Shown here in pieces: positions 6,225 to 62,988 of a stretch of DNA of 64,000 bases. The stretch covers positions 118,683 through 182,682 of the forward strand of contig JAPLXS010000006.1 in NCBI GenBank assembly GCA_026395965.1. The letters are read 5' to 3'. Origin of the DNA: Candidatus Nomurabacteria bacterium. Lineage in GTDB: Bacteria > Patescibacteriota > Minisyncoccia > Phycocordibacterales > UBA9973. The notes under the pieces are model-generated. The model did not search any database. It saw only the letters and a program-made list of their open reading frames with translations, and was not told the DNA's origin. Position 1 is the first letter of the stretch. Every line of letters starts with the position of its first letter. The position numbers were made by a program, and so were the translations under genes.

Positions 6225-6350
6225 ACAGTATTGACACTATGTGCGATAAAAGTATATACTTCATTAGTAACTAGCCATCAGGGACAAATTCCTCTTAGGA
6301 AAAGCGAAAGCTACCTGTATGCGCTGACCGCCCCGTAAGGGGCGGTTTTC
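6225..6350 (+). ncRNA. candidate small RNA / structured 3' UTR
   Basis: Promoter-like TTGACA-17nt-ATATAC at 6231-6259. About 85 nt downstream there is a strong terminator (accgccccgtaaggggcggttttctttt) at 6324-6350. No ORF. Confidence 0.3.
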
Positions 6351-35568: not shown

Positions 35569-35572
35569 TCAT

Positions 35573-36286: not shown

Positions 36287-36379
36287 CGAGATACTAAAAT
36301 TTTAATAATAATTTATTTTCTATATTTAACTATTTATTTGATGTATAAATTTAATTAAGTAAAATTTACAAAAGAAAAA

Positions 36380-38633: not shown

Positions 38634-40775
38634 TTATTTTCTTGATTCTATAATTGTAGTTGCAACGTTTTGAGGAACTATATCATAACGAGTAAATTCC
38701 ATAGTAAATGATGCTCTACCCTCTGTCATAGAACGGAGAGTTGTCATGTATCCAAACATTTCTGATAGAGGGACAATGGCTTTAACAGCTTGGTTCATAC
38801 CACGAGCTTCCATTCCTTCTATAAGTCCACGCTTTGATGACAGACTTCCTGTAACATCTCCCATGAATTTATCTGGAGTAACAACTTCAACTTTCATCAT
38901 AGGTTCCAAGATAACTGGGCGAGCCATTTTACATGCATCTTGCATAGCCATAGAAGCTGCGATTTTGAAAGCCATTTCGTTTGAGTCGACATCGTGGTAA
39001 CTTCCGTCCCATAGTTCAACTGATACGTTAACAATCTTAAATCCAGCAAGTACTCCGCGATCAAGACCTTCTTTGAATCCTTTTTCACAAGCAGGAATGT
39101 ATTCTTGTGGAATAGCTCCTCCTTTGATTGTATTGATAAATTCAAATCCTTTCTCTCTCTTTGTGTTTCTTGGTAGGTCTTCATCTTTGATAGACATATC
39201 CATTGGCTTGATCTTGATTTTAACGTGACCATAGTTTCCTCTTCCTCCTGATTGCTTGATGTATTTACCTTCTACACCAGCTTCACCAGTAATAGTTTCT
39301 CTGTATGCAACTTGAGGTTTACCAACATTTGTTTCAACAGAAAATTCACGCTTCATACGATCAACAATGATTTCAAGATGGAGTTCTCCCATTCCTGCAA
39401 TAATAGTTTCGTTTGTTTCAGCATCTGTAGTAACACGGAAAGTAGGATCTTCTTGTGCAAGACGAGATAATGCCATACCCATTTTTTCTTGGTCTGCTTT
39501 TGTTTTTGGTTCAACACGTAGAGAAATAACTGGTTCTGGGAATACAATACGGTAAAGTTCGATTGGGTGCTCTTCTTCACACATTGTGTCTGAAGTAATA
39601 GTATCTTTAAGACCAACCGCTGCTGCGATTTCTCCTGCATAAACTTTCTTTACTTCTTCACGATCGTTTGCGTGCATTCTCAAAATACGTCCAATACGTT
39701 CTTTGTTGCGAGTACGAGGGTTGTAAATATAACTTCCAGCAGAAAGACTACCTGAGTAAACTCTGAAGAAAATTATTTGTCCTACGAATGGGTCTGTGGC
39801 AACCTTGAAAGCAAGAGCTGAAAAAGGTTCTGCGTCTGAAGCCTTACGTTCAATAATTTCATCGGTATTTGGATCAATACCTCCGATAGGAGGAATATCT
39901 GTTGGACTTGGAAGGTAATCAATAACAGCATCAAGTACCAACTGAACTCCTTTATTTTTCAAAGCACTTCCTGCAAACACTGGGAAAATCTCGTTTGCTA
40001 TTACTCCCTTTCTCATTAATTTCTTTAGAGTCTCGTAATCAGGAACGATACCTTCAAAATACTCATTCATAGTTTTGTCGTCTTGTTCAACTATTTTTTC
40101 AATCAATTCTGCGTGGTATTTTTTGGCATCAGCCATCATATCTTCTGGAATTTCTTTTTCAATAACTCTTGAACCCATCTCTCCTTCAAAGTAATAAGCT
40201 TTCATCTTTAGAAGATCTACAACTCCATCGTGGTTTTCTTCAAGACCAATAGGAATCTGCATACGAATAGCCTTCTTTGTTAGGCGGTCTAAAATAGTAG
40301 CATATGAGTGTTCGAAAGATGCACCTGTTCTATCTAGTTTGTTTATAAAACAGATTCGTGGAACACTGGCTTCGTCGGCATAGCGCCAGTTTGTTTCTGA
40401 TTGAGGTTCTACTCCAGCAACTCCATCAAATACAACAACAGCTCCGTCTAGAACACGAAGAGAACGCTTTACTTCAACAGTAAAGTCGATGTGTCCTGGT
40501 GTATCGATAATATTGAAACGGTGTTTTTTTGTTTTGTCTGTAAGTGCGTATGTTGGAGTCCAAAAACAAGTAACAGCAGCAGAAGTAATAGTGATGCCTC
40601 TTTCTCTTTCTTGTTCCATCCAGTCTGTGGTAGTTTCCCCATCGTGAACTTCACCTATTTTGTGTGATACTCCTGTATAAAAAAGCACACGCTCTGTTGT
40701 AGTTGTTTTACCCGCATCGATGTGGGCAATGATTCCTATATTTCTAACTTTTTCTAACGGATAATCTCTTTCCAT
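38634..40775 (-). CDS. fusA: elongation factor G
   Basis: G domain ([21 protein letters not shown]) and full-length EF-G conservation. Confidence 0.95.
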
Positions 40776-41033
40776 GTTTATATATATAATTAATAAAAAT
40801 AAAACCTGCCTGCCGAAAGTCAGGTTTACCCACTCATATGTAGGCGACGATTAAGTCTTTTGTCCTCTGAATATACAACAAAAAAAGTAAATTTGCAACA
40901 AAAAATCCCTCATATTTTGTATGAGGGATTTTTTAATTTAGATTTGAATTTATTATCAAGAAAGTGAGGGACTCCGACTATAAAGCTTTATTTCATAAAG
41001 CTAAGACCTATATGCTCCACTTTGCACTGGCAT

Positions 41034-41062
41034 AAAAAAAATCCCCAGATGGGGATTTTTTT
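41034..41062 (-). terminator. hairpin plus T-tract directly after rpsG
   Basis: aaaaaaaatccccagatggggatttttttt. Confidence 0.6.
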
Positions 41063-41533
41063 CTACCAAGCAAAGTGAGCAAACGCCTTGTTTGATTCTG
41101 CCATTTTGTGAGTATCATCACGCTTCTTAACAGCAGTTCCTTCGTTTTTAGATGCAAGTATTAGTTCTTCAGCAAGCTTTTCGTGGATTGGAGCTCCCTT
41201 TTTACCGCGAGCAGCTAGTATTATCCATCTCATTGCTAATGCAGTACGTCTTTCAGGTCTAACTTCACGAGGAACCTGGTAGTTTGCACCACCGATACGA
41301 CGAGAACGAACTTCAACCATAGGACCAGCATTTTTGATAGCTGTATCAAACACTTCTAGAGGATTTGGATTACCTGTCTTTTCTTTGATTATTTCAAAAG
41401 CTTTGTAAACAGCTTTACGAGCTGTCTCCTTCTTTCCGTGTACCATGATATTGTTAATAAACTTCGCAAGTTTTTGAGAGTTATAAACTATATCTGGTTC
41501 TACTATATTTCTGTTTGTTATTTTTCTTCGCAT
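41063..41533 (-). CDS. rpsG: 30S ribosomal protein S7
   Basis: Canonical S7 sequence (IMVHGKKETARK...). Confidence 0.95.
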   Translation of the reverse strand: MRRKITNRNIVEPDIVYNSQKLAKFINNIMVHGKKETARKAVYKAFEIIKEKTGNPNPLEVFDTAIKNAGPMVEVRSRRIGGANYQVPREVRPERRTALAMRWIILAARGKKGAPIHEKLAEELILASKNEGTAVKKRDDTHKMAESNKAFAHFAW

Positions 41534-41545
41534 ATTATTTAGGAA

Positions 41546-41971
41546 TTATTTTTTTACAGCTGCTTTAGGTGTCTTTGTACCATATAGACTTCTGGATTGA
41601 CGACGCTTTTCAACTCCTGTTGTATCAAGACGACCACGAACTATGTGGTAACGTACTCCGATCAAGTCTTTAACACGTCCTCCGCGAATCATAACAACTG
41701 AGTGTTCTTGTAGGTTGTGACCTTCTCCTGGAATATAAGCAGTAACTTCCATTCCATTTGTTAGACGAACACGAGCTATCTTACGAAGAGCTGAGTTAGG
41801 TTTCTTTGGAGTAGTTGTTGATACTTTAGTACAAACACCACGCTTAAATGGAGCAGGATAAAATACTGGCTTATTTTTAATAGAATTAAAACCGCGAGCA
41901 AGAGCTACGGCCTTTGACTTTCTTTTTATTATTTTACGGTTCTTTCGAACCAATTGATTGATTGTAGGCAT
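41546..41971 (-). CDS. rpsL: 30S ribosomal protein S12
   Basis: [13 protein letters not shown] is a canonical S12 N-terminus. I placed the start at this internal Met of the longer ORF. Confidence 0.95.
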
Positions 41972-42081
41972 AATTAAACAAAAATAGTCGTAAATGACTA
42001 GTGACACTACTTTACTATAACAGAAACAAAAAAGCAAGCCCTACAAAAAGGATACTCTTTGAATACTTGAGTAATCCACCC

Positions 42082-43833
42082 TTATGACAATGGGCTTTTG
42101 TTATAACCATCTGTATTATATATTTTAAACTTATTATTTATATAACCTTTGGTTATTTTAATAGGATTTGAAGTATACACAACACTGTAAGTTCCATCTG
42201 CATTTATATTTTCTACCCTTACATAATAATCTCCGTTTGGTACCAAGCAATAATATTTGCCAGATTTATTTGCAACATTTTTTGCTATTTCGTGATCTAG
42301 CCAAACAGAATAAACTTTCATGACTCCAAATGATACTGGTTTGCCATTTCTCTTGTTTGTAACATAACCCAAAGGACTAGGATCAAAAATAAAATCTTTT
42401 AATATAAACAATAAAACATATAGACCGAAAATTATTAGATTGTATATATTATCTGAAACTAGAACTGATACAGATGACAACGCAAACCCAGAATAAAAGA
42501 CTACAATCAAAATATGATACATTATTAAATCAAAAGTAGAATAGAATTTCTTTGTTTTTGGATCTTGTTTTTTAGATTCATCCATATCAAATACAACTGG
42601 ATCAATAGGAATATTTCTTTTAACAATCTCCCCTTCTTTGATTGTTACCAATTCACTTCTATATATATTTATATACAACTCGTCGTCTATATTTTCTTTT
42701 ATTTTTTGTGATGGGAATTGATAATTATTTTTAATAACTATTATTTTGTATTTACCTTCAGGAACCATAAATCCATAACGTCCATCAATATCTGTAATAG
42801 CTGTTGCAATATTGTTGCCTTGTAAATCTTGCAAAACAACTTTTGCCATATCAATAGGTAATTTTGTAACACTACTGTAAACAACTCCCCATGGATGATT
42901 TCTCTTTAAAATAATAAAAGCCAAGAGCCATAAAATCAAAAGATAAATAATTATAGAAAATATTTTTAACAATGAAGAAAGTTTGGTGTGTAATACAGGA
43001 AACAAAGAAAGATAACTTGTTTCTGTTATTATTTTGGTTACGAAACCACTGGTTTTCGATTGAAATATTTCAGGTGGATTAATATTATTTAAAACAGGTT
43101 CAACAGTGGTAGTATCTATACTTGGAATTGTTTTTGGAACAACAGGAAGTACCGGGTAAGTAACTGGTGGGTTGGTTGGATTACAATCTGAACCTATACA
43201 TGACGAAGGCAAGCAAGTAGGATCGGTTGGATGAAGAACACAGAAAGATATACTTCCCCCATTGTTGTCGGGTGGAGTTACTACCACAACATCTGAACCA
43301 GGACGCCAGTCTGTAGTAACACAATAGCTAGGACTTGAGCAGTCAAATTTTATCCAACCATTGTTTTGACTCCAAGCATACCCGTTGAATTGACCTAAAT
43401 TATTTATAACAACAGGTGTTGCGGAGCTATTTGAAAATGGACCAAAATTCACCCATCCTGAAGTCTGCCCCCATGCGTATCCAGATAACTGACCACTAGT
43501 ATTGTTTGCGACTTTAAAATTGCCATTTATACTACCACAACCACTTGTTGTATTTGAGCAGTTTAGAACCACCCAACCGAAAGACGCTCCCCAGATATAA
43601 CCAGAAAGAGAATCGCTAGTAACATGAACATTTGATGCAGGATTATTTGTAAAATAACCAAAATTTATAGGTGAAGTAACAGTGACTAAACATGCCGCTG
43701 TCTCACACACCTGAGCAGTGTGATTTGTACTATCTATCGTACCGTTTGTAGTGGATGCTCTAACTTGAAACGACCCCAACAAAAGTATCGAAAGGAAAAT
43801 ATATTTAAGATATTTTTTATAGTTTATTTGCAT
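42082..43833 (-). CDS. secreted Cys-rich polytopic membrane protein with GYxWG...GWxxF repeats and two carboxypeptidase-regulatory-like beta-sandwich segments
   Basis: Signal peptide, three SGYAWGxxxGWVNF-type repeats, many Cys, three internal TM helices, and DIDGRYGFMVPEGKYKIIV / KSGKYYCLVPNGDYYVRV motifs. Confidence 0.5.
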   Translation of the reverse strand: MQINYKKYLKYIFLSILLLGSFQVRASTTNGTIDSTNHTAQVCETAACLVTVTSPINFGYFTNNPASNVHVTSDSLSGYIWGASFGWVVLNCSNTTSGCGSINGNFKVANNTSGQLSGYAWGQTSGWVNFGPFSNSSATPVVINNLGQFNGYAWSQNNGWIKFDCSSPSYCVTTDWRPGSDVVVVTPPDNNGGSISFCVLHPTDPTCLPSSCIGSDCNPTNPPVTYPVLPVVPKTIPSIDTTTVEPVLNNINPPEIFQSKTSGFVTKIITETSYLSLFPVLHTKLSSLLKIFSIIIYLLILWLLAFIILKRNHPWGVVYSSVTKLPIDMAKVVLQDLQGNNIATAITDIDGRYGFMVPEGKYKIIVIKNNYQFPSQKIKENIDDELYINIYRSELVTIKEGEIVKRNIPIDPVVFDMDESKKQDPKTKKFYSTFDLIMYHILIVVFYSGFALSSVSVLVSDNIYNLIIFGLYVLLFILKDFIFDPSPLGYVTNKRNGKPVSFGVMKVYSVWLDHEIAKNVANKSGKYYCLVPNGDYYVRVENINADGTYSVVYTSNPIKITKGYINNKFKIYNTDGYNKSPLS

Positions 43834-43856
43834 TAAATATATTATTTACTAAATAT

Positions 43857-46800
43857 TTATAAAACTGGCAGAGCAGGAGTTTCAGTAGTATCTGCTGGTG
43901 GTGGAACTACGGCAGCAGGAGTTTCTACTGCTGGTGGTACTACTTCGACAGGAGGAATATTTGTATCCCCAGGAACGACAACTGAAGCGTCAACAGGAGG
44001 TGTATCTGAAGTTGTTGTATCTGTTATTGATGTTGCACCTGTTGTTGCAGATGAGCCTGATGTTGATGGAATTAATTGTTTTAATTTAATAAGATCAGTC
44101 TTGTTGATACACTCATACGAACCATCTGGGTCAGTAAGACAAATCTCTCCAGTAAAGATGCGAGTTATCTTATTTGCCGCATTAGATAACCATGCAAAGA
44201 GACTATCTCTCCATGTATTTTGTATAGTCATATCAGCTATTCCTGTTATTTTTAGATTCATCTCTCTTATCGCTTCTACTATGATAGGTGTCATCTGCGC
44301 GTAGTACACGGACTTGTACCCTTGTGAATCTGTTGCTACGAGTTGAGGAAAATATTGCTCCAAATCTTGAGCGAGGAATCCAACTTGTTGTGGAGATGCT
44401 GGATTTTCCAACCAGTTATAAGTAACTGTTTTTACTTTCAACAAGTTATCTAAAGTATTATCAGATAGATTTATAATATTTGTCTTTAGTCTTTCATCTG
44501 AAGTACAAGCGATACCTGTACCAGTAGTGATAGTACACTGAGTAGAAGAAGAGCCATTTATACGAGTAGTATTTATCGGTCTATTGGCAGAACCTACTAT
44601 AAACTGATTTGCGGCTGTATTGGTTGCGTATGCACCTATTGCTATACTGTTTGAAAAGCTTCCTGCGCTCGTGGCATGACCAATTAGGATAGAAGTATCG
44701 GCGAATGTAGTAGTGTCATTGTATACAGCTGTATTGTTGACTGTATTATTGTATCCTGAATTTCTACCAATAAATATTGAGTTGGCAGCATTTGTAGCAT
44801 TGTACCCTGCACTACTTCCAAAGAAATTTGAGTTAATAGCGTTAGCTGCACCATACCCTGACAATAAACCAAAAAAGTTTGAGTTATTGGCTGAAGTAGC
44901 ACCACTTCCGGAATTTTTTCCAAAGAAGTTTGAATATGAAGCAGTAGTTGCACCACTTCCTGCATTCGGACCAAAGAAGTTTGAGTTAATAGCTGAGGTT
45001 GCATTATACCCTGTAGCTCCTCCAAAGAAATTAGAGTTGTTAGCTGAGGTTGCACCATATCCTGAAAGTGCCCCAAAGAAATTAGAAGAAAAAGCACTAG
45101 TTGCATTTTGTCCGGCGCCGTTTCCCATAAAGATGGTACCATTAGCAGATGCTGTACCTTGGTTGCCACCAATAAAAATTGAGTTGATCTGTCTGTTAAC
45201 AGAACCTACCATAAACTGATTTGCGGCTGTATTGGTTGCGTATGCACCTATTGCAATACTGTTTGAGTACCCTCCTGTACCAGTACCATGGCCTAGGAGG
45301 ATTGAAGTATTGGCAAAAGTAGTTACATCGTCATATACAGAAGTATTAACAACGGTATCATTTAAGCCTGAATTTGTACCTATAAATATTGAGTTGGCTG
45401 CACTAGTTGCACTATGTCCTGCATCTGTTCCAAAGAAATTTGAATAAGCAGCAGAACCAGCTTGATTTCCTGCGTTTAATCCGAAGAAGTTTGAGTTGTT
45501 AGCGGAATTAGCACTACTTCCTGCATATGATCCAAAGAAATTTGAATCATGGGCATTGACAGAACTACTTCCTGCACTTGTTCCAAAGAAGCTTGATTGA
45601 TTCGCATAAGTTGCACCATTTCCTGCATTAGAACCAAAGAAATTTGAATTCGAAGCACCGGTTGCTAGTACTCCTGTATTAACTCCAAAGAAGTTTGATG
45701 CATAAGCACCAGTAGCACCCCATCCCGCCCAATACCCGAAAAAGTTTGAGCTATTAGCATTGGTTGCATTTATTCCCGATTTTACACCAAAGAAGTTTGA
45801 GCCATAGGCACTAGTTGCTGATAATCCCGCATCAGCACCAAAGAAGTTTGATGCACTAGCACCAGTAGCAAGCTTTCCTGCATTAGAACCAAAGAAGTTT
45901 GAACTATTAGAACTGGTTGCACCATATCCTGCACTATGACCAAAGAAGTTTGAGTTATTTGCACTGGTTGCACCATTTCCTGCATCTGTACCAAAGAAGT
46001 TTGAATATGGAGCAGAACTAGCATGATACCCCGCAAGATAACCAAAGAAGTTGGAAGCATCAGAATTTGTGGCTCCGTCACCTGCATTTGATCCAAAAAA
46101 GTTTGAGCTATTAGCATTGGTTGCGCCATTTCCTGCATATGATCCAAAGAAATTTGAACCACTTGCATTGGTTGCACTATTCCCTGCATTAATTCCAAAG
46201 AAGTTTGAAACATTGGCAAGAGAAGCATTAAGTCCTGCATTAACTCCAAAGAAGTTTGAATTAGATGCGCCAGTTGCACCACTTCCTGCATCTGTTCCAA
46301 AGAAGTTTGAATTATCTGCACTAGTTGCATTTTTACCCGCACTATTACCCATAAAGATTGTATTTTGAACAGATGCTGTGCCTTGATTGCCTCCAATAAA
46401 AATTGAGTTAATTGGTCTGTTAGCAGAACCTACCATAAACTGATTGGAATATGTATTGGTTGTATACGCACCTAATGCAATACTATTTGAGTACCCTCCA
46501 GTGCTAGTACTATGACCAATGAGGATGGAGGTGTCGGCGAAGGTAGTAGTCTCATTGTACAATGCAGTATTGTTTACAAGATCATTATTACCTGAATTAG
46601 TACCTATAAATATTGAGTTGGCAGCATTGGTTGCAGAATAACCCGCAGAAGAACCAAAGAAATTTGAATTAAATGCAAAAGTAGCTGTGCTTCCTGCACT
46701 TGGTCCAAAGAAGTTTGACGCAAGGGCATTTGTTGCGTTTGTTCCCGCAGAAGAACCGAAGAAATTTGAGCTACTGGCCTCAGTTGCACCATGACCTGAA

Positions 46801-49493
46801 TCTGTTCCAAAGAAGTTTGAGCCATTTGCATTTGTGGCACCATCACCTGCATTTGCTCCAAAGAAATTAGAATAATAAGCATTATAAGCATTGAGTCCTG
46901 AGCTTGATCCAAAGAAGTTGGAGTTATTTGCAGCAGTTGCATTTTCACCTGCACTTACGCCAAAAAAGTTTGAGGCAGTGGCGACAGTTGCATTTCTTCC
47001 TGCACTTAATCCAAAGAAGTTTGATTGGTTAGATAAACTTGCTCCATCTCCGGCATAACTTCCAAAAAAGTTTGAGTTGTTGGCATCAGTTGCATTTTGA
47101 CCAGAAAATGTACCAAAGAAGTTTGAGCTGTAAGCATTAGTTGCACTTATTCCTGAAAAATTTCCAAAGAAGTTTGAATTATTGGCACCACTAGCATTTT
47201 GACCAGAAAATGTACCAAAGAAGTTTGAGTGGTCGGCTGCATTTGCACCGTCACCTGCATTTTGTCCAAAGAAGTTAGAGTTATTGGCAGCAGTTGCATT
47301 TAGTCCAGAATTAAGTCCTAAAAAGTTTGAATAAGAAGCATCGGTAGCACTAAGTCCTGCATTCGCTCCCGAGAAGTTTGAATCATTTGCTTTTGTTGCA
47401 CCGTTTCCTGCACTTGGTCCAAAGAAGTTGGATGAGTAAGCTGAATTTGCACCTAAACCTGTGCTTGATCCAAAGAAATTTGAGTTGTTGGCACTAGTTG
47501 CACCATTTCCTGCGTCTGTACCAAAGAAGTTTGAGTTTGAGGCGGAAGCTGCATTCAATCCTGCGTTATTTCCCATAAAGATTGTACCAATTACTGATGC
47601 TGTGCCTTTGTTTCCGCCAATAAAAATAGAATTTATAGGTCTGTTATCAGAACCTACCACAAACTGATTGGGTGCTGTGTTGGTTGAGTATGCACCTATT
47701 GCAATACTATTTGAGAAACCACCAGTATTTGTATTGTGACCAAGGAGAATGGATGTATCAGCGAAGGTGGTAGTATCATCATACACTGCAGTATTGTTTA
47801 CTGTATCATTGTATCCTGAATTTTTACCAATAAATATTGAATTGGCGGCATTGATTGCATGATTTCCCGCATAATAACCAAAGAAATTTGAATCATAAGA
47901 ATTGTTTAAATTATTGGAATCTCCTCTTCCTGCATTTGATCCAAAAAAGTTTGAATTAGAAGCATTATTAGAATAAATTCCTGAGGAAGGTCCAAAGAAG
48001 TTTGAACTACTAGCACCATTTGCACTATTACCTGCACTATACCCAAAGAAGTTTGAGTAAGTAGAATTTATAGCTCCATATCCTGCTGTTTGTCCAAAAA
48101 AGTTTGAATAAGATGCACCTTCAGCAATTTTACCAGCTCTATCTCCAAAAAAATTTGAACCATCAAGACCTAAAATTCCCTCCCCAGCACTTCTACCAAA
48201 AAGGTTTGAACTAATTATATTTACTCCACCATTACCTGCATCTCTTCCAAAGAAGTTAGATTCGTAAGCATATATAGCTCCTAGGCCAGCACCTTCTCCA
48301 AAAAAATTTGAGTTGTAAGCACCAATTCCACCGCTTCCTGCATTTAGTCCAAAGAAGTTTGAACTTGTAGCATCAGTTGCATTCAATCCTGCGTTTGTTC
48401 CAAAGAAGTTTGAGTTAGCTGCGTTAGTAGCACTACTTCCTGCGCTTGTTCCAAAGAAATTGGAGTTAGCAGCAGCAGTTGCACTATTACCTGCGCTTGG
48501 TCCAAAGAAATTGGAGCTATTAGCACCAGTTGCACCAAACCCTGAATTGTCTCCAAAGAAGTTTGAATTATCTGCATTAGTTGCACCACTTCCTGCACTT
48601 AATCCAAAGAAATTTGATTTAGCAGCATTGGTTGCACCATCTCCTGCATTTGATCCAAAGAAGTTGGAACTACTCGCATTGGTTGCATTTGATCCAGATG
48701 CATAGCCTAAGAAGTTTGAGAAGGAGGCAGAAGCTGCATTCAATCCCGCATTTGTTCCAAAGAAGTTTGAATTAGAGGCGCCAGTGGCACCACTTCCAGC
48801 ATTATTTCCAAAGAAGTTTGACGAGAAGGCATTGGTTCCATTCAACCCAGCTCCATAACCTAAGAAGTTTGAATTATCAGCATTGGTCGCACCACTTCCT
48901 GCATTTTTTCCAAAGAAGTTTGAGTAAGTAGCAGACGAGCTTGATCCTGAGCCTGTTAGTCCTGTAGAAAAAAGTGATGTGGTGTTTTGTACTGTAATAG
49001 GTGAAGACACTACTGTCCCCCATGCTATATCTGTACCGTTGGTAGTGAGAAATTGACCCGCAATACCAGAGACAGATGGGATAACAACTTTCCAATCTGA
49101 AGATAAAGTAAGACAACGATTTTGATTGGCATCCAAAGAAGAGTCAGTGACAGTTGTTGTACAAGCTGGGTACCCTCCGCGGTTTGTAACTAGACGATAA
49201 GTTGCTGTCTGATTTCCTGCTGTGCCAGAGTCGGTATCTATAACAGTTGCTATCATTCCTAGAGATCTTCTTTCACTTGTGATAGCAAGTAGAGCTGTCA
49301 TATCTGCTACTTGCATGTGTCCTCCTTGGAGGTAGTTTGTATCAGCGATAGCAAAGTAACCGTTCCCTACTCCGAGAGTAGTAGGTACAGCTAGACCTCC
49401 GTTTTGAGAATAAGCTCGATATGAAAATGAACCAACCATAAGTAGGACGGTTGTAATAAAAAATATTTTTGTTTTAAGGTCTATTATTTTCAT
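43857..49493 (-). CDS. giant (1878 aa) secreted tail-fibre-like repeat protein with C-terminal Peptidase_S74 intramolecular chaperone domain
   Basis: Signal peptide. N-terminal fibre-like motif GQFLTTNGTDIAWGTV. More than 90 tandem 15-aa repeats (SNFFGxxAGxGATxA). Four higher-order ~100-aa modules (SIFIG.NSG...FADTSIL.GH...NQF.VGS.NRPINSIFIGGN). TSDERLKTNI...YNW...GF.AQDLEQ..P.LV matches the S74 autoproteolytic chaperone. A Pro/Thr/Val-rich tail follows. Confidence 0.7.
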   Translation of the reverse strand: MKIIDLKTKIFFITTVLLMVGSFSYRAYSQNGGLAVPTTLGVGNGYFAIADTNYLQGGHMQVADMTALLAITSERRSLGMIATVIDTDSGTAGNQTATYRLVTNRGGYPACTTTVTDSSLDANQNRCLTLSSDWKVVIPSVSGIAGQFLTTNGTDIAWGTVVSSPITVQNTTSLFSTGLTGSGSSSSATYSNFFGKNAGSGATNADNSNFLGYGAGLNGTNAFSSNFFGNNAGSGATGASNSNFFGTNAGLNAASASFSNFLGYASGSNATNASSSNFFGSNAGDGATNAAKSNFFGLSAGSGATNADNSNFFGDNSGFGATGANSSNFFGPSAGNSATAAANSNFFGTSAGSSATNAANSNFFGTNAGLNATDATSSNFFGLNAGSGGIGAYNSNFFGEGAGLGAIYAYESNFFGRDAGNGGVNIISSNLFGRSAGEGILGLDGSNFFGDRAGKIAEGASYSNFFGQTAGYGAINSTYSNFFGYSAGNSANGASSSNFFGPSSGIYSNNASNSNFFGSNAGRGDSNNLNNSYDSNFFGYYAGNHAINAANSIFIGKNSGYNDTVNNTAVYDDTTTFADTSILLGHNTNTGGFSNSIAIGAYSTNTAPNQFVVGSDNRPINSIFIGGNKGTASVIGTIFMGNNAGLNAASASNSNFFGTDAGNGATSANNSNFFGSSTGLGANSAYSSNFFGPSAGNGATKANDSNFSGANAGLSATDASYSNFLGLNSGLNATAANNSNFFGQNAGDGANAADHSNFFGTFSGQNASGANNSNFFGNFSGISATNAYSSNFFGTFSGQNATDANNSNFFGSYAGDGASLSNQSNFFGLSAGRNATVATASNFFGVSAGENATAANNSNFFGSSSGLNAYNAYYSNFFGANAGDGATNANGSNFFGTDSGHGATEASSSNFFGSSAGTNATNALASNFFGPSAGSTATFAFNSNFFGSSAGYSATNAANSIFIGTNSGNNDLVNNTALYNETTTFADTSILIGHSTSTGGYSNSIALGAYTTNTYSNQFMVGSANRPINSIFIGGNQGTASVQNTIFMGNSAGKNATSADNSNFFGTDAGSGATGASNSNFFGVNAGLNASLANVSNFFGINAGNSATNASGSNFFGSYAGNGATNANSSNFFGSNAGDGATNSDASNFFGYLAGYHASSAPYSNFFGTDAGNGATSANNSNFFGHSAGYGATSSNSSNFFGSNAGKLATGASASNFFGADAGLSATSAYGSNFFGVKSGINATNANSSNFFGYWAGWGATGAYASNFFGVNTGVLATGASNSNFFGSNAGNGATYANQSSFFGTSAGSSSVNAHDSNFFGSYAGSSANSANNSNFFGLNAGNQAGSAAYSNFFGTDAGHSATSAANSIFIGTNSGLNDTVVNTSVYDDVTTFANTSILLGHGTGTGGYSNSIAIGAYATNTAANQFMVGSVNRQINSIFIGGNQGTASANGTIFMGNGAGQNATSAFSSNFFGALSGYGATSANNSNFFGGATGYNATSAINSNFFGPNAGSGATTASYSNFFGKNSGSGATSANNSNFFGLLSGYGAANAINSNFFGSSAGYNATNAANSIFIGRNSGYNNTVNNTAVYNDTTTFADTSILIGHATSAGSFSNSIAIGAYATNTAANQFIVGSANRPINTTRINGSSSTQCTITTGTGIACTSDERLKTNIINLSDNTLDNLLKVKTVTYNWLENPASPQQVGFLAQDLEQYFPQLVATDSQGYKSVYYAQMTPIIVEAIREMNLKITGIADMTIQNTWRDSLFAWLSNAANKITRIFTGEICLTDPDGSYECINKTDLIKLKQLIPSTSGSSATTGATSITDTTTSDTPPVDASVVVPGDTNIPPVEVVPPAVETPAAVVPPPADTTETPALPVL
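44700..48950. repeat. intragenic 45-bp tandem repeat region (ccaaagaagtttga... units) encoding SNFFG repeats
   Basis: The recurring motifs ccaaagaagtttgag / ccaaagaaatttga are visible throughout the giant gene. Confidence 0.75.
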
Positions 49494-49512
49494 TATTTAT
49501 ATAACTTGCAAA

Positions 49513-50112
49513 CTATTTTATCGTGAACACAGATGAAACTCCTGTGTCTCTTGATCTATAAACATAATACTCTTGAGAGTCGTAAGACTGCACAGATCTA
49601 ACCATTACAGGATACGCTCCGATAGGTGTCATAAAACAAGTAGTATAGGTAGATGCGTCGTGACTGCACCCCTGCTCGGGTTCAAATGATTTTAGCCAAG
49701 CAAAGTAAATATACTCTGAACTTTTGGCATTGAATGATTGAGTACCTATAGAAGTTCTTGAAGTTCCGAAAACAGAGGAAACTGGTGTAAGGTTTGAAAA
49801 TTTGACTAGGGTTCCGTCGGGCTCTGCACTATAACCATAAAATACTTTTCCATTACCTTTTATTATTTTATTTATAGTGTCACTTTCTGTATTTTTTGTA
49901 TTTACATCTGTTGTTGTCTTCTCTCCAACACCAAGCAAAGTACCACTATTGATATTTAAATCTTTATTTTCAGCAAATGAAATATCTTGAATCTTTGTGT
50001 CTGGAGAATAATTTATTTTATATTTTTGATAAAAGAATATACACAAAACAATAATTATTGTAATTAGTATTATTATCTTTAAAAAATTTTTATCTTTCAT
50101 GTAATTTTTCAT
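49513..50112 (-). CDS. membrane-anchored secreted protein; paralogue of 50116..51258 (shared ~110-aa C-terminal Cys-pair domain)
   Basis: N-terminal TM anchor. The C-terminal domain (KVFYGYSAEPDGTLV...YIYFAWLKSF...GCSHD...CFMTPIGAY...YYVYRSRD) aligns with the neighbour. Confidence 0.5.
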   Translation of the reverse strand: MKNYMKDKNFLKIIILITIIIVLCIFFYQKYKINYSPDTKIQDISFAENKDLNINSGTLLGVGEKTTTDVNTKNTESDTINKIIKGNGKVFYGYSAEPDGTLVKFSNLTPVSSVFGTSRTSIGTQSFNAKSSEYIYFAWLKSFEPEQGCSHDASTYTTCFMTPIGAYPVMVRSVQSYDSQEYYVYRSRDTGVSSVFTIK

Positions 50113-50115
50113 AAT

Positions 50116-51258
50116 TTATTGGATTGTATAGGTTGCACTTGGGTTAATATCGTATGATCTATAAACCCAGTAAAGAATACCATTTCTTGTCTGTTGCGTA
50201 CGAACAAAGTTTGAGACATATCCAAGTGGTGTAGAGAAACAATCGGCTGCTCCTAGCCCATCGTGCTTACAGATTGTACCGGCATCAAAAGCTTGAGGCC
50301 AAGCAAAGTAAATATAATTTCCACCAGAGAGATTAAATGTACGACTTGCAGGAATAGATGTTCTAGCTGTAGAACTAGCAAGAGCAACAGATGTAAGAGT
50401 ATTCAAGTCTACAAGTGTTCCGTCAGATTGTGTAGATGAACCATAAAATACTTTTGATCTATAAACCACAGTTGATGTAGCAGCGACAACATTTGGTGGG
50501 TTTACACCACTTGCAACAGAACCAGCTCCACTAGACTGAGTACAAGATCCGGCTGCTGCTTGGAGTGCGCTACAAGGATAAGCTGTAAATGAAAATGTAG
50601 CTGTGCCGTTTAGAGTATTGTATGCAGCTGAGTTTGCAATATAAACCAAAGTACCAGAACCACTAGCTGCCCCACCTGAAATAGTTGAAGGCTGAGGACC
50701 AGAAGAGTATGTTGCATTTGAAGGAGTCACAGAACTTGCTCCGTAAATATAGAAACTGTTTCCATCACTATCTGCGGGACTTTTAGATAGAGACCAACCC
50801 AAAGAAATGTTTGTTGAATCTCCAACTTCTCTGACTGTAGTGGTAGCTGTATTGGATGCAATAATATTGCCAGATGGAGCCACGTATACAAATAATAATT
50901 TCTTTATGAAATCGTGCATTGAGGTAGCAGATGTTGGAGTATGAGTAGCTCCATTTGCGAGTGTAATTCCTGTAACACTTTTGTTCAGAAGATCAGAAAA
51001 ATCACTTTCCCATGATACGCCACCAACTCCGTTGGAAACAAGATTTTGATTTAGAATACCACCAGATGGAAAAATACTAACAAAACAATTTGGATCTCCT
51101 GGTGCACAAGCTGGGTCTAAAGTTTCTCCAGGTCCATAAGGACTTCCAGTCGCAAAGATTTTAAAGTATGCACCAAAAAGTATAACAATGAGAATTATGG
51201 CTACAAATTTTGGCCAGTGTTTAGATATAAAATTAAAATAGATGGAATCTCTTTTCAT
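50116..51258 (-). CDS. membrane-anchored secreted protein with S/T/A/G-rich spacer; paralogue of 49513..50112
   Basis: N-terminal TM anchor. The C-terminal domain (KVFYGSSTQSDGTLV...YIYFAWPQAF...CKHD...CFSTPLGY...YWVYRSYD) is shared. Confidence 0.5.
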   Translation of the reverse strand: MKRDSIYFNFISKHWPKFVAIILIVILFGAYFKIFATGSPYGPGETLDPACAPGDPNCFVSIFPSGGILNQNLVSNGVGGVSWESDFSDLLNKSVTGITLANGATHTPTSATSMHDFIKKLLFVYVAPSGNIIASNTATTTVREVGDSTNISLGWSLSKSPADSDGNSFYIYGASSVTPSNATYSSGPQPSTISGGAASGSGTLVYIANSAAYNTLNGTATFSFTAYPCSALQAAAGSCTQSSGAGSVASGVNPPNVVAATSTVVYRSKVFYGSSTQSDGTLVDLNTLTSVALASSTARTSIPASRTFNLSGGNYIYFAWPQAFDAGTICKHDGLGAADCFSTPLGYVSNFVRTQQTRNGILYWVYRSYDINPSATYTIQ

Positions 51259-51322
51259 TAATTATATTATACACCATTTATGCACAAAACCTATAATTTT
51301 TAAACCTAAAAAGTGGATAACA

Positions 51323-51985
51323 CTAAAAATAAATCCCCGTTAGTAGAGAAAAAACAACATACACAATTGGAGAAACTCTACTCCATAAAAATAGTATAAA
51401 GAAAAGTAAAAAAAACATCCCCCATCTTTCTAAAAAGTTTTCTATGTAGCGATATTTAAACGGAAGAAATGAAAATATTATCTTTGAACCATCAAGTGGT
51501 GGTATGGGAATAATATTGAACAGAGCAAGAACTAAATTCATTATTACTATGATTGAAGAAATTTTATAAAAAGGATGTAGTAGTAATGGTGTTGGATTGT
51601 ATGCAGGTATTCCAAATATTGGCGCAAATCTTATAAGGAGACCAAAGAAAATAGCAATAGTTAGGTTTGCGGCTATTCCTGAAAAGGCTACTATCATATT
51701 GCCCCACTTACCTTTTCTTAAATTGTTTGGATTGTAAGGCACAGGACGAGCCCAACCTATTAAAAAACTCCCTGCGGTTGATAGATACAGCAACAAAGGC
51801 AAAATAACAGAACCAAAAGGGTCTAAATGTTTGAGAGGATTTAAGGTAAGTCGTCCTTGTAGACGAGCAGTGTCATCTCCAAGAAGATACGCAGAATACC
51901 CATGAGCCACTTCGTGAATCACGATTGACATGATCAAAACTGACACATAAAATATTCCATCTATAAATTGTACTTGCATAGGCAT
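51323..51985 (-). CDS. peptidase M50 (site-2 protease family) membrane metalloprotease
   Basis: HEVAHGYSAYLLGD (HExxH) inside a TM helix. Polytopic. Confidence 0.65.
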   Translation of the reverse strand: MPMQVQFIDGIFYVSVLIMSIVIHEVAHGYSAYLLGDDTARLQGRLTLNPLKHLDPFGSVILPLLLYLSTAGSFLIGWARPVPYNPNNLRKGKWGNMIVAFSGIAANLTIAIFFGLLIRFAPIFGIPAYNPTPLLLHPFYKISSIIVIMNLVLALFNIIPIPPLDGSKIIFSFLPFKYRYIENFLERWGMFFLLFFILFLWSRVSPIVYVVFSLLTGIYF

Positions 51986-52012
51986 GATATATATGATAGC
52001 ATACCTCTACAT

Positions 52013-52258
52013 ATGGCGAAAGTTTGTGATATAACTAAAAAGGGCTCAAAGATGGCAGGAGGATACTCCAACGTTGTTCGTGCTACCAAGTTCAACCCTA
52101 CAGGTATGGTTCGTAAATATACCAATCTTCAAAAGAAGAGAATATATGTTCCTGAACTTAAAAAGTACTTCCCTCTTACACTATCTACTAAAGCAATCAA
52201 AACAATCAACAAAAACGGTGCTTACAAAGTATTAAAGAAAGCAGGAATCATTAAATAA
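52013..52258 (+). CDS. rpmB: 50S ribosomal protein L28
   Basis: MAKVCDITKKGSKMAGGYSNVVRATKF is an L28 N-terminus. I placed the start at this internal Met. Terminator at 52258-52290. Confidence 0.8.
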   Translation: MAKVCDITKKGSKMAGGYSNVVRATKFNPTGMVRKYTNLQKKRIYVPELKKYFPLTLSTKAIKTINKNGAYKVLKKAGIIK

Positions 52259-52290
52259 AAATCCCCACGAATAAATCGAGGGGATTTTTT
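52258..52290 (+). terminator. rho-independent terminator of rpmB
   Basis: aaatccccacgaataaatcgaggggatttttt. Confidence 0.7.
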
Positions 52291-52312
52291 ATTGATGATT
52301 AAAGTTACTTTA

Positions 52313-52447
52313 AATAATTTATTTTTAATCAAAAATAGTCTTTGTAAAATACATTGCGTAGGTTGTCGAGCCGAGCATAGCAAAAAATAAACAGATTTTT
52401 ATGCGCGTATTTTGAGAAGAGCTATTTTTGATTAAAAATAAATTATT
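52313..52447. repeat. ~135-bp element bounded by perfect 26-bp inverted repeats (aataatttatttttaatcaaaaatag)
   Basis: 52313-52338 is the exact reverse complement of 52422-52447, flanking an 83-bp core. It lies between convergent genes. Confidence 0.65.
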
Positions 52448-52451
52448 CCTC

Positions 52452-53315
52452 TTAATACACCAAATTTACTCCATCACTTTTAAATAAAATATTTCCTATT
52501 TCAGATGTATTCATAAATGGTATTTTTAAAGACGATAGTCTATTTAATGTTTCTTCGCTTGGATGCCCGTATTTATTATTCTTTCCAGCAGAAACAATAG
52601 CAACTTTTGGATTTACTTTCTCGAGCCACAAAATACTTGATGCTGTTTTTGCACCATGGTGTCCGAGCTTTAAAACATCTGAATGTATTGTCGCATCACT
52701 TTCATTCCATTCTATTAGATTCTCTACATAAAGACTTGCATCTCCTGTCAGCATAAAAGAATTATTTCCATAAACTAGCTTTCCTACTATTGATCCATCA
52801 TTACTTTCTAGTTTTGATATATCACGATCTGGATATAAAATATCAATATAAATATTATTCTTTTCATCTAAAATAATATGCATGCCGCGATGTGCAATAA
52901 TTTTATTTATTTTATTTTTTATAATTTTATTTTCCAAACTTGAAAATATTTTAGTATTAGATATATTTCCATTTTCTATAATACTTGCAACCTTGTAGCT
53001 ATCTAACAACAAAGGAAATCCTCCTATGTGATCCATATCTCCATGTGTTGCTATTATCATATCTATAGACCTATCTGCAAAAGGCATAACTTTCGATAGG
53101 CTCGAAAGTAGCTTAGAATCAGGTCCACCATCTACTAGAACTTGTTTTCCATTTGGTGCTTCTATGTATATAGCATCCCCTTGCCCAACATCCAAAAACA
53201 CAACCTTTAAATACTTGTTGTCGTGATTTTGAAAAGAGTTAAATAGAAGAGCAAATCCAACAGATAAAAGAATAATTATTAAAATATATGGTAAATATTT
53301 CTTGAGGTATTTCAT
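52452..53315 (-). CDS. MBL-fold metallo-hydrolase, ComEC C-terminal (lactamase_B) domain-like, membrane-anchored
   Basis: VVFLDVGQGDAIYIE...IATHGDMDHIGG...GHHGA are metallo-beta-lactamase motifs as found in ComEC/Rec2 C-terminal domains. Confidence 0.7.
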   Translation of the reverse strand: MKYLKKYLPYILIIILLSVGFALLFNSFQNHDNKYLKVVFLDVGQGDAIYIEAPNGKQVLVDGGPDSKLLSSLSKVMPFADRSIDMIIATHGDMDHIGGFPLLLDSYKVASIIENGNISNTKIFSSLENKIIKNKINKIIAHRGMHIILDEKNNIYIDILYPDRDISKLESNDGSIVGKLVYGNNSFMLTGDASLYVENLIEWNESDATIHSDVLKLGHHGAKTASSILWLEKVNPKVAIVSAGKNNKYGHPSEETLNRLSSLKIPFMNTSEIGNILFKSDGVNLVY

Positions 53316-53352
53316 GATATAATATACATATTAACATTAAACTTTAATTTAC

Positions 53353-53943: not shown

Positions 53944-53995
53944 AAATATAATTCTAAATCAAGAATCAAAAAAAATAGGAGTTAGAGATTACAAT

Positions 53996-62920: not shown

Positions 62921-62988
62921 AATTAGTAAAAAGGTCATATTTATAAAATATGACCTTTTTACTAAAACCAGACGTTGGACGTCTATTT
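62921..62988. repeat. palindromic terminator region containing short AGACGT-TGG-ACGTCT palindrome
   Basis: agtaaaaaggtcatat-ttataa-aatatgacctttttact, followed by ccagacgttggacgtctattt at 62967-62988. Confidence 0.6.

What the first reader, a model, noticed from the sequence alone, without database searches (positions are those of the whole stretch)
42082..51258. Four-gene operon of secreted/membrane proteins centred on a tail-fibre-like giant protein, inserted directly upstream of the str operon
Four co-directional genes at 50116..51258, 49513..50112, 43857..49493 and 42082..43833 have 3-24 nt spacers and no intervening terminators. All encode proteins with a signal peptide or TM anchor. They end about 110 nt before rpsL-rpsG-fusA. 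The centrepiece is an 1878-aa protein with a fibre-like N-terminus, more than 90 SNFFG repeats of 15 aa, and a Peptidase_S74 intramolecular-chaperone/autoprocessing domain otherwise typical of phage tail fibres and endosialidases. The window contains no other phage structural genes, integrase or lysis genes. This looks like a domesticated fibre or adhesin module rather than a prophage. The two upstream paralogues and the downstream Cys-rich membrane protein have no recognisable homology. For a putatively host-dependent CPR-type cell, a long self-processing surface fibre could mediate host attachment. That is speculative, but this operon is the most distinctive system in the window.
Basis: partly seen in the sequence, partly recalled or inferred. 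Interest (0 to 1): 0.85.

Follow-up and report, generated by a model that had tools for sequence, protein, structure and literature searches.

The report
Phage-type surface fibre locus in Nomurabacteria
An ultra-small CPR bacterium carries chromosomal genes for exported proteins built from phage tail-fibre parts (a 1878-residue self-cleaving fibre plus two small proteins with a phage fibre-tip domain), most likely cell-surface attachment fibres, in a variable slot of an otherwise conserved housekeeping gene block.

Summary
The four co-directional genes, their 3/19/23-nt spacers and the 110-nt gap to rpsL are real. The giant protein has a genuine Peptidase_S74 intramolecular-chaperone domain, with Ser1665 and Lys1670 invariant in 40 relatives.

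- The repeat is 17 aa, not 15, and there are 63 units, not more than 90. They form four arrays separated by four copies of a ~100-aa module.
- The downstream 583-aa membrane protein is not an orphan. It belongs to a large Patescibacteria family (relatives in 397 species-representative genomes).
- It is part of a conserved block MBL–(L28)–M50–[slot]–p583–rpsL–rpsG–fusA. Only the fibre genes between M50 and p583 are variable: 16 of 70 loci have a fibre there, and 33 have none, with M50 directly next to p583.
- The two upstream paralogues share a rare C-terminal domain that also ends a collagen-like phage tail fibre.
- The 17-aa repeat also occurs in a phage contig.

No phage genes lie within ±12 kb, GC3 is host-like, and all four proteins carry export signals or membrane anchors.

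Verdict: these are long-resident, modular, phage-derived surface fibres of a Candidatus Nomurabacteria cell, not a prophage. Host attachment is plausible but untested. This is a new variant of a known kind, of moderate to high interest.

The parts
51323..51985 (-). Peptidase_M50 (site-2-protease-type intramembrane metalloprotease), 220 aa. It is the conserved upstream border of the variable slot, co-directional and 64 nt before the 380-aa gene.
   Evidence: Pfam PF02163, E 3.5e-12. M50 lies directly next to the p583 homologue in 33 of 70 loci and precedes the fibre genes in others.
50116..51258 (-). p380. It has an N-terminal TM/signal segment plus the motif 'GSPYGPGETLDPACAPGDPNC', which is the common N-terminus of CPR S74 fibres. 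A Ser/Thr/Ala-rich body follows, then the C-terminal ~125-aa phage fibre-tip-type domain (aa 255-380).
49513..50112 (-). p199. It has an N-terminal TM anchor, a short linker and the same C-terminal tip-type domain (aa ~75-199). GenBank starts it 4 codons later (195 aa, NTU81_01490).
49404..49493 (-). Giant protein signal peptide (aa 1-30, '...SFSYRAYS/Q').
   Evidence: Sequence and hydropathy. The cleavage site is inferred.
48924..49403 (-). Giant protein N-terminal domain (aa 31-190, motif 'GGHMQVAD...RRSLGM', Cys111/Cys127). The same domain heads a p380-type protein in a relative (P0122).
   Evidence: 45% identity, E 1e-27 to the P0122 N-terminus. Also found in P0005, P0250 and P0258.
44781..48923 (-). 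Fibre shaft, aa 191-1571. It holds four arrays of the 17-aa unit S-N-F-F-G-x-x-A-G-x-(G/N)-A-T-x-A-x-x (21, 18, 18 and 6 units). Three ~102-aa modules interrupt them (aa 552-653, 960-1061, 1368-1469). The super-period is 408 aa.
   Evidence: The AF2 model shows one short strand per unit. The same repeat occurs in a phage ORF in L083.
44502..44780 (-). Fourth copy of the ~100-aa module (aa 1572-1664, 'NSIFIG...TTTFADTSILIGH...NSIAIGAY...NQFIVGS', Cys1653/Cys1663), directly before the cleavage site.
44109..44501 (-). Peptidase_S74 / intramolecular chaperone autoprocessing domain (aa 1665-~1795). The motif S1665-D-E-R-L-K1670 carries the catalytic Ser (codon 44499-44501) and Lys (44484-44486).
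   Evidence: Pfam, 56.4 bits. SDERLK is identical in the PDB 8jov tail fibre. S, D and K are invariant in 40 sequences. Foldseek matches 7dc3, 3gw6 and 3gud at prob 0.99-1.00, with E-values from 4.7e-3 (7dc3) to about 0.1.
43857..44108 (-). C-terminal Ser/Thr/Pro-rich tail after the chaperone domain (aa ~1796-1878) plus the stop codon. S74 cleavage would remove it together with the chaperone.
   Evidence: Sequence. Homologues carry 170-310 aa after the motif.
42082..43833 (-). p583, a conserved Patescibacteria membrane protein. It has a signal peptide and an extracytoplasmic beta-rich domain with three 'GYAWGxxxGW(I/V)NF'-type repeats and paired Cys (aa ~30-175). A Pro/Cys-rich linker and TM1 (~290-312) follow, then a transthyretin-like domain (316-410), a TM hairpin (436-482) and a second beta-sandwich (489-571).
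41546..41971 (-). rpsL, first gene of the str operon and the conserved downstream border. A 110-nt gap separates it from p583 and holds a weak hairpin followed by a U-run.
   Evidence: fold z-score only -1.24.

Best explanation
The locus encodes Sec-exported cell-surface proteins of a Candidatus Nomurabacteria (CPR) cell, assembled from phage receptor-binding-protein modules.

The 1878-aa protein is made as a precursor with an N-terminal signal peptide. Outside the membrane, its C-terminal S74 intramolecular-chaperone domain is expected to bring three chains together. That would nucleate folding of the upstream shaft: 63 seventeen-residue beta-coil units in four arrays, punctuated by four ~100-aa modules. 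The domain would then cut itself off at Ser1665 using a Ser1665/Lys1670 dyad. This removes the last 214 residues and leaves a stable trimeric fibre of about 1630 residues per chain. From generic beta-helix geometry the fibre would be tens of nanometres long.

The two small upstream proteins are membrane-anchored by an N-terminal TM segment. Each displays a ~125-aa domain that in phages sits at the distal end of tail fibres, so they are probably alternative or accessory binding heads.

The three genes occupy a variable slot between two conserved membrane-protein genes, the M50 intramembrane protease and the three-TM p583 protein, just upstream of rpsL-rpsG-fusA. In other species the slot holds different fibres or none.

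The most likely role is adhesion to a partner cell or another surface. Specificity would be changed by module exchange, as in phage host-range evolution.

Shown: gene structure, domain identities, conservation of the catalytic residues, phage kinship of the repeat and tip domains, synteny and its variability, and the absence of a prophage.
Inferred: trimerisation, autocleavage, surface display, any role of p583 or M50 as anchor or processing partners, and the adhesive function.
For: S74 domain:
- The Pfam hit is far above the cut-off.
- The SDERLK motif is identical to a solved tail fibre.
- S1665, D1666 and K1670 are invariant in a 40-sequence alignment.
- The AF2 model (pLDDT 77) matches the MyRF ICA domain and the endosialidase and GA-1 chaperones at prob 0.99-1.00, although the Foldseek E-values are weak (4.7e-3 to about 0.1).

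Export:
- All four proteins have N-terminal hydrophobic segments, and their ectodomains have paired Cys.
- DsbB and thioredoxin genes are in the window.
- 66 of the top 120 homologues have an N-terminal hydrophobic segment, and 43 of those also carry the S74 motif.

Phage kinship:
- The 17-aa repeat is 45% identical to a 994-aa ORF on an 87.7-kb phage contig, next to an S74 tail fibre, a DNA polymerase and a helicase.
- The p380/p199 tip domain matches the C-terminus of a 1037-aa collagen-like tail fibre on a 61.9-kb phage contig.
- Other relatives of the tip domain are phage-fibre-like proteins without a signal peptide.

Not a prophage:
- The flanks are housekeeping genes.
- GC3 is 0.20-0.24, the same as neighbouring housekeeping genes.
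- The same position is occupied by fibres in other species.
- Homologues elsewhere also sit among housekeeping genes.

Modularity:
- P0122 joins the giant's N-terminal domain to a p380 body.
- The p380 N-terminus is the commonest N-terminus of CPR S74 fibres.
- L087 carries three tip-domain genes in the same slot.
- The closest species representative, L073, has an empty slot.
Against: - No experiment or proteomic datum shows that the proteins are made, exported, trimeric, cleaved or surface-attached.
- After signal-peptide and S74 cleavage the mature fibre would have no obvious covalent or membrane anchor. Retention on the cell is therefore unexplained, and release into the medium is possible.
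- The monomer AF2 model cannot show the quaternary structure, and the repeat region has no match among solved structures.
- Adjacency of fibres to p583 could reflect inherited synteny rather than function. Most p583 loci have no fibre.
- The middle 2.6 kb of the giant gene is not independently assembled. The exact protein is absent from the protein collection.
Confidence: 0.6

Rival explanations
1. The locus is a prophage or decayed-prophage tail-fibre region. The genes would be virion receptor-binding proteins left behind by, or still belonging to, a phage integrated next to the str operon.
For: - The S74 domain, the 17-aa shaft repeat and the tip domain all occur in genuine phage tail-fibre genes.
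- Occupancy of the slot varies between species.
Against: - No capsid, terminase, tail-tube, integrase or lysis gene lies within ~12 kb on either side, nor around the homologues examined.
- All three proteins carry an N-terminal signal or TM segment, whereas the phage counterparts examined (the L083 ORF and the signal-less tip-domain relatives) do not.
- GC3 is host-like.
- The same slot between M50 and p583 holds fibres in at least 16 species-level lineages.
Confidence: 0.07
2. The proteins are a structural envelope component, such as an S-layer-like coat, sheath or wall-spanning scaffold, rather than a specific adhesin. The link to M50, p583 and a highly expressed ribosomal operon would reflect constitutive envelope biogenesis.
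For: - p583 and M50 are conserved envelope proteins flanking the slot.
- The shaft has a low-complexity N/S/G/A-rich composition.
- Fibres sit next to ribosomal operons in two different arrangements.
Against: - The slot is empty in about half of related species, including the closest one. An essential coat would not be expected to show that.
- The tip-type domains and the module shuffling resemble binding-specificity evolution.
Confidence: 0.15
3. The fibre is released rather than cell-bound. After signal-peptide and S74 cleavage the trimer would be a secreted, phage-fibre-like binding protein, for example for receptor masking against phages or for inter-cell competition or aggregation.
For: - The mature product has no predicted anchor.
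- The S74 domain removes the C-terminal 214 aa, including the Pro-rich tail.
Against: - p380 and p199 appear membrane-anchored, and p583 offers a possible dock.
- No toxin or enzymatic domain was detected.
Confidence: 0.13
4. It is a trimeric autotransporter adhesin, as JGI names two homologues.
For: - JGI labels P0002 and P0110 this way.
- The ~100-aa modules contain 'NSIAIGAY' motifs like those of the YadA head.
- One homologue has a borderline YadA_head hit (24.9 bits against a cut-off of 25).
Against: - The giant has no YadA anchor and no Pfam YadA_head or stalk hit.
- The C-terminus is an S74 chaperone, not a beta-barrel anchor.
- From general knowledge, CPR cells are monoderm, so there is no outer membrane to hold an autotransporter barrel.
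Confidence: 0.02

Closest known systems
Phage tail fibres and tailspikes matured by a C-terminal intramolecular chaperone (Peptidase_S74: K1F/endoNF endosialidase, phage GA-1 neck appendage, T5 L-shaped tail fibre pb1)
   Same: - It has a C-terminal S74 domain with the Ser-x4-Lys dyad in an SDxRxK motif.
- The domain lies directly after a repetitive beta-rich shaft.
- The predicted fold matches 3gw6 and 3gud.
- The shaft repeat and the neighbours' tip domain also occur in phage fibres.
   Different: - It is chromosomal, lies among housekeeping genes and has no virion genes nearby.
- It has a Sec signal peptide, so assembly would be extracytoplasmic.
- It carries an extra Cys-pair and a Ser/Thr/Pro-rich tail after the chaperone.
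- The shaft is unusually long, with 63 units in a 408-aa super-period.
MYRF (myelin regulatory factor) ICA domain, a cellular (eukaryotic) use of the S74 fold
   Same: - It is the best structural match to the model (7dc3, prob 1.00).
- It is a non-viral protein that uses the same trimerise-then-self-cleave device. That description of MYRF is from general knowledge.
   Different: - MYRF cleavage frees a transcription factor from an ER membrane anchor.
- Here there is no TM segment after the domain, and the released part is the chaperone and tail, as in phage fibres.
'Tail fiber domain-containing protein' of Patescibacteria MAGs (the NCBI annotation name for P0012, P0025, P0033, P0104)
   Same: It has the same architecture: N-terminal signal or TM segment, 17-aa repeats, and S74 about 170-310 aa from the C-terminus. 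At least 359 relatives were found.
   Different: - This member is among the longer ones. It has a giant-specific N-terminal domain (GGHMQV type, seen in only 2 of the 120 listed relatives) instead of the common PGETLDP type.
- I found no publication describing the family.
Trimeric autotransporter adhesins (YadA family)
   Same: Both would be long, repetitive, probably trimeric surface fibres, and the modules contain head-like 'SIAIG' motifs.
   Different: There is no beta-barrel anchor and no significant YadA Pfam hit, the C-terminus is different, and the host is monoderm.

Membership tests
Peptidase_S74 / intramolecular chaperone autoprocessing (ICA, CIMCD) domain proteins | Significant match to the family profile (PF13884). 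| tested here: met
   56.4 bits against a gathering score of 22, E 3.7e-15, aa 1665-1719, covering profile positions 1-57 of 58.
Peptidase_S74 / intramolecular chaperone autoprocessing (ICA, CIMCD) domain proteins | Catalytic Ser at the cleavage site and Lys five residues downstream. | tested here: met
   S1665-D-E-R-L-K1670. SDERLK is identical in the PDB 8jov tail fibre. S, D and K are invariant and R nearly invariant in 40 aligned relatives.
Peptidase_S74 / intramolecular chaperone autoprocessing (ICA, CIMCD) domain proteins | ICA fold. | tested here: met
   The AF2 model has pLDDT ~85-92 over the domain core. Foldseek matches 7dc3 (E 4.7e-3, prob 1.00) and, more weakly, 3gw6 (E ~0.1, prob 0.99) and 3gud (E 0.14, prob 1.00). 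No match reaches E 0.001.
Peptidase_S74 / intramolecular chaperone autoprocessing (ICA, CIMCD) domain proteins | Trimerisation and autoproteolytic release of the domain. | not testable with these tools
   This needs expression with mass spectrometry, or a multimer prediction. Only monomer models were available.
Phage virion tail fibre (component of a phage or prophage) | Encoded within a phage genome, next to structural, packaging or lysis genes. | tested here: not met
   Flanks of ±12 kb are SOD, ComEC, RNase H, RecJ, PGK, TIM, DsbB, FKBP, the MacB ABC system, NusG, L11, EF-P and RecA. Related loci are likewise housekeeping.
Phage virion tail fibre (component of a phage or prophage) | Cytoplasmic assembly, meaning no secretion signal. 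| tested here: not met
   An N-terminal hydrophobic signal or TM segment is present in the giant, p380 and p199. The phage homologue in L083 has none.
Trimeric autotransporter adhesin | C-terminal YadA-type beta-barrel membrane anchor. | tested here: not met
   There is no such Pfam hit, and the C-terminus is S74 plus a Pro-rich tail.
Trimeric autotransporter adhesin | YadA head or stalk repeats. | tested here: inconclusive
   The giant has no hit. One homologue, P0112, is borderline (24.9 bits against a cut-off of 25).
Patescibacteria CarboxypepD_reg membrane protein family (p583) | Full-length similarity with the conserved architecture: N-terminal GW-repeat ectodomain, TM, transthyretin-like domain, TM hairpin, second sandwich. 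| tested here: met
Patescibacteria CarboxypepD_reg membrane protein family (p583) | Conserved position between M50 and rpsL. | tested here: met
   M50 lies directly next to p583 in 33 of 70 loci, and M50 with a fibre in between occurs in 16 of 70. rpsG lies within 1.5 kb downstream in 39 of 80 loci.

The most novel reading that the evidence does not exclude
The M50/p583 slot upstream of the str operon could be a host-range cassette of episymbiotic Paceibacteria. The cells would display phage-derived receptor-binding fibres, matured outside the cell by an S74 chaperone, to recognise their partner cells. They would change partner specificity by swapping N-terminal, shaft and tip modules, as phages do. 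The conserved M50 protease and the three-TM p583 protein would be the membrane platform that processes or docks these fibres. If so, this would be the attachment apparatus of a major CPR lineage for which no adhesin is known.
Probability: 0.25. Interest if true: 0.85.

Novelty: new variant of a known kind. Interest (0 to 1): 0.6.

Why it matters
Paceibacteria (Parcubacteria) are among the most abundant CPR lineages, and they are thought to depend on other cells. Their attachment machinery is unknown. The characterised cases concern Saccharibacteria type IV pili and a few adhesins (PMC11665869, as read).

This locus gives concrete, testable candidates: a self-processing trimeric fibre and two tip-domain proteins. 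Their phage ancestry suggests how specificity could evolve. It also shows the S74 'assemble then self-cleave' device apparently working outside the cytoplasm of a bacterium, which would be a third context after phage virions and eukaryotic MYRF.

Separately, it exposes a conserved M50-p583-rpsL gene block of unknown function in hundreds of Patescibacteria species.

Tried and rejected
- PHROGs, NCBIfam and Pfam scans of p380 and p199 gave nothing. Only a profile search of 1.84 billion representatives found relatives.
- A word-indexed search with p380 found only 3 proteins.
- The repeat shaft of the giant's model had no PDB match.
- I suspected that the giant's N-terminal motif resembles the N-terminus of phage proteins P0275 and P0280 (phrog_23630). 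BLAST did not support this (E 0.34), so I dropped it.
- The hairpin between p583 and rpsL is not more stable than shuffles (z -1.24). Whether p583 is co-transcribed with rpsL is left open.
- The raised G+C of the giant gene (0.39-0.40) is not evidence of foreign origin. It comes from codon position 2 (Gly/Ala/Ser/Thr), while GC3 is host-like.
- The 408-aa super-modules are only 68% identical at the DNA level, so they are not a recent duplication.
- Four literature searches found no paper on S74 fibres in CPR.
- The meaning of Pfam PF26696 ('PTL_trimer'), present in some homologues, could not be checked because it is not in the local Pfam copy.
Full report
**1. Observation**

The spacers are 3, 19 and 23 nt. 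The rpsL ATG is at 41971, 110 nt after the p583 stop, and rpsG and fusA follow. Terminator-like sites in the region are not more frequent than in shuffles, and none lies in a spacer.

A fifth co-directional gene, a Peptidase_M50 intramembrane protease (51323..51985), ends only 64 nt upstream of p380. Beyond it lies a divergently oriented rpmB. The transcription unit may therefore begin with M50.

**2. The giant protein**

Pfam places Peptidase_S74 at aa 1665-1719 (56.4 bits against a cut-off of 22). The domain begins with S1665-D-E-R-L-K1670, and the same hexapeptide occurs in the solved tail fibre 8jov. In an alignment of 40 family members, Ser1665, Asp1666 and Lys1670 are invariant and Arg1668 is nearly so. 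An AlphaFold2 model of aa 1300-1800 (mean pLDDT 77) matches the MyRF ICA domain and the endosialidase and GA-1 intramolecular chaperones at Foldseek probability 0.99-1.00, though with weak E-values of 4.7e-3 to about 0.1.

The repeat description needs correcting. The unit is 17 residues, S-N-F-F-G-x-x-A-G-x-(G/N)-A-T-x-A-x-x, not 15. There are 63 units (57 with exact SNFFG), not more than 90. They form four arrays of 21, 18, 18 and 6 units separated by four copies of a ~100-aa module. That gives a 408-aa super-period whose copies are only 62% (protein) and 68% (DNA) identical, so the duplication is old. The model gives one short strand per unit, at the N-F-F positions.

One caveat applies. Independent short-read assemblies of the same sample are 100% identical to the window over 47200-53993 and 40482-44628 but break inside the repeats. 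Residues 765-1621 therefore rest on the MAG contig only. In addition, the exact giant sequence is absent from the 15-billion-protein collection although its three neighbours are present.

**3. Organism and family**

p380, p199 and p583 are identical to proteins of a 333-kb contig of a Candidatus Nomurabacteria MAG (locus tags NTU81_01495 and NTU81_01490). The CPR guess was right.

The giant has at least 359 relatives, most with PF13884. The named ones come from Patescibacteria or Paceibacterota MAGs, and NCBI calls them 'tail fiber domain-containing protein'. All 120 listed relatives have a dominant 17-aa period. Of these, 66 have an N-terminal hydrophobic segment and 43 of those also carry the S74 motif. 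The other 54 lack an N-terminal hydrophobic segment, and several of them have N-termini that look like those of phage fibres.

**4. Phage kinship of every module**

A scan of IMG/VR found the 17-aa repeat (45% identity) in a 994-aa ORF with no signal peptide. It lies on an 87.7-kb phage contig beside an S74-bearing tail fibre, a DNA polymerase and a helicase.

The C-terminal ~125-aa domain shared by p380 and p199 (39% identity, E 1e-25) is rare. Only 41 relatives reach E <= 1e-3 among 1.84 billion representatives, and in nearly all of them the domain is at the C-terminus. Several of these relatives lack a signal peptide and have collagen-like or other phage tail-fibre N-terminal parts. On a 61.9-kb phage contig, the domain ends a 1037-aa collagen-like tail fibre (phrog_6320, E 6e-136) that sits among other tail-fibre genes.

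The upstream paralogues are therefore not orphans. They carry a domain that sits at the distal end of a phage tail fibre.

**5. Modularity**

The p380 N-terminus (a TM segment followed by 'GSPYGPGETLDPACAPGDPNC') is the commonest N-terminus of the CPR S74 fibres. The giant's own N-terminal domain (aa 31-190) recurs at 45% identity (E 1e-27) at the head of P0122, whose body is 74% identical to p380. P0122 lies in the same slot of a relative, in the order M50, a 338-aa p380-like gene, P0122, then a p199-like gene. N-terminal, shaft and tip modules are thus being exchanged among these genes.

**6. Context**

p583 is not an orphan either. It has CarboxypepD_reg domains and at least 863 relatives, with 73 invariant columns in a 22-sequence alignment. 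Relatives were confirmed in 397 species-representative genomes, and nearly all of the 80 loci listed are titled as Patescibacteria-type MAGs.

Its model shows a confident beta-rich N-terminal ectodomain, a disordered Pro/Cys linker, a TM helix, a transthyretin-like sandwich, a TM hairpin and a second sandwich.

I analysed synteny in 80 fetched loci. They show a conserved block: MBL, (L28), M50, [slot], p583, rpsL, rpsG, fusA.
- Of 70 loci with upstream sequence, 16 have an S74 or 17-aa-repeat ORF immediately upstream of p583. Complete ORFs among them are 594-2178 aa. Two of the 16 are cut by a contig end, and one (L017) is the same contig as L002.
- 33 have M50 directly next to p583.
- 21 have neither.
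- Three further loci have a fibre immediately downstream of p583, and three (L047, L048, L058) have p380-like genes downstream.
- The closest representative (L073, p583 65% identical) has an empty slot.
- One genome (L002, the same contig as L017) has the full arrangement M50, 329-aa p380-like gene, 2178-aa fibre, p583, rpsL.

Fibres also occur elsewhere, always among housekeeping genes. One case is again M50, then a 1395-aa protein, then an S74 fibre, ahead of tuf and the S10 operon.

In the window, every gene within about 12 kb on either side is housekeeping. GC3 of the four genes (0.20-0.24) falls within the housekeeping range. The raised G+C of the giant comes from codon position 2.

The 'insertion upstream of the str operon' is therefore better described as variable cargo between two conserved membrane-protein genes. 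It has been resident long enough to be compositionally indistinguishable from the host.

**7. How it most likely works**

Shown: all four proteins have N-terminal hydrophobic segments, and their ectodomains carry closely spaced Cys pairs. DsbB and thioredoxin genes are in the window.

Inferred from what is established for S74 domains in endosialidase, GA-1 and T5 fibres and in MYRF (general knowledge):
- After Sec export, three precursor chains would be brought together by the C-terminal chaperone.
- The shaft would fold from the C-terminus.
- The chaperone and the Ser/Thr/Pro-rich tail (214 aa) would be cut off at Ser1665.

With 63 coils, the shaft would be roughly 30 nm long if each chain forms its own solenoid, or up to about 90 nm if the three chains intertwine. 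This estimate comes from generic beta-helix geometry and is not computed from the model.

p380 and p199 would be membrane-anchored proteins displaying phage-type tip domains. How the mature fibre stays on the cell is unexplained. The extracytoplasmic domain of p583 is a candidate dock. M50 is a candidate processing enzyme, because site-2 proteases cut TM segments with the N-terminus inside the cell, which is the orientation predicted for p380 and p199. Both ideas rest only on gene neighbourhood.

Adhesion to a partner cell fits the phage receptor-binding ancestry, the module shuffling and the presence/absence polymorphism, but it is untested.

**8. Rivals**

- Prophage remnant: unlikely, given the export signals, the housekeeping flanks, the host-like GC3 and the recurrent chromosomal position.
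- Constitutive envelope scaffold or S-layer-like component: possible, but hard to reconcile with empty slots in close relatives.
- Secreted rather than cell-bound fibre: cannot be excluded.
- Trimeric autotransporter (JGI's label for two homologues): fails on the defining anchor domain.

**9. Novelty**

The S74 device, fibre shafts and tip domains are known phage parts, and the family already carries a generic database name. I found no paper linking S74 or endosialidase-chaperone domains to CPR bacteria.

New here are four things: the 17-aa repeat architecture; the recognition that the neighbouring small proteins carry a phage fibre-tip domain; the modular exchange between these genes; and the definition of a variable slot inside a conserved M50-p583-str block. 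I rate it a new variant of a known kind, with interest 0.6.

Noticed in passing
window 42082-43833 and 51323-51985; loci L003-L082: M50 protease and the three-TM p583 protein form a conserved gene pair immediately upstream of rpsL in many Patescibacteria. Relatives of p583 occur in 397 species-representative genomes, and M50 lies directly next to p583 in 33 of 70 loci. Hydropathy and the positive-inside rule predict that p583's two transthyretin-like sandwiches are cytoplasmic, which is unusual for this fold. The function is unknown.
   Followed up: partly
window 43857-49493: The exact 1878-aa protein is absent from the 15-billion-protein collection, although the three neighbouring proteins from the same GenBank contig are present. 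The gene may be uncalled or marked as a pseudogene in the record. Short-read Logan assemblies break inside it at 47200 and 44628.
   Followed up: partly
window 6267-6329 (+): The only Rfam hit in the window is DUF3800-II RNA (49 bits against a gathering score of 43.2).
   Followed up: no
window 62987-63923 (-): Adjacent DsbB and thioredoxin-like genes suggest extracytoplasmic disulfide formation. That is consistent with the paired cysteines in the exported proteins of the locus.
   Followed up: no
window 51259-51300 (-): A 'TGTATAAT' extended -10-like element ends 7 nt before the p380 ATG. This would imply a nearly leaderless transcript starting inside the M50-p380 spacer. The consensus promoter scan did not report it.
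   Followed up: no
window 52452-53315 (-): The conserved metallo-beta-lactamase-fold protein upstream of the block matches PHROG families strongly (phrog_14556, E 2.9e-54, and phrog_7043 'tail protein', E 1.3e-35). Yet it sits in the conserved SOD-MBL-L28-M50 housekeeping block.
   Followed up: no
L087 1-3857: A relative carries three tip-domain genes in the M50 slot: a 338-aa p380-like gene, the chimeric 588-aa P0122 and a p199-like gene. This shows rapid rearrangement of the cassette.
   Followed up: yes
L086 815-13176: A second arrangement links M50, a 1395-aa protein, an S74 fibre and a PG_binding/Flg_new protein directly to the tuf-S10 ribosomal operon in a Paceibacterota genome. No p583 gene lies in that run.
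   Followed up: partly
window 33030-37924 (-): A HlyD-type membrane-fusion protein, a MacB-type ABC ATPase and two MacB/FtsX permeases form a tripartite-efflux-like set in what general knowledge says is a monoderm organism.
   Followed up: no
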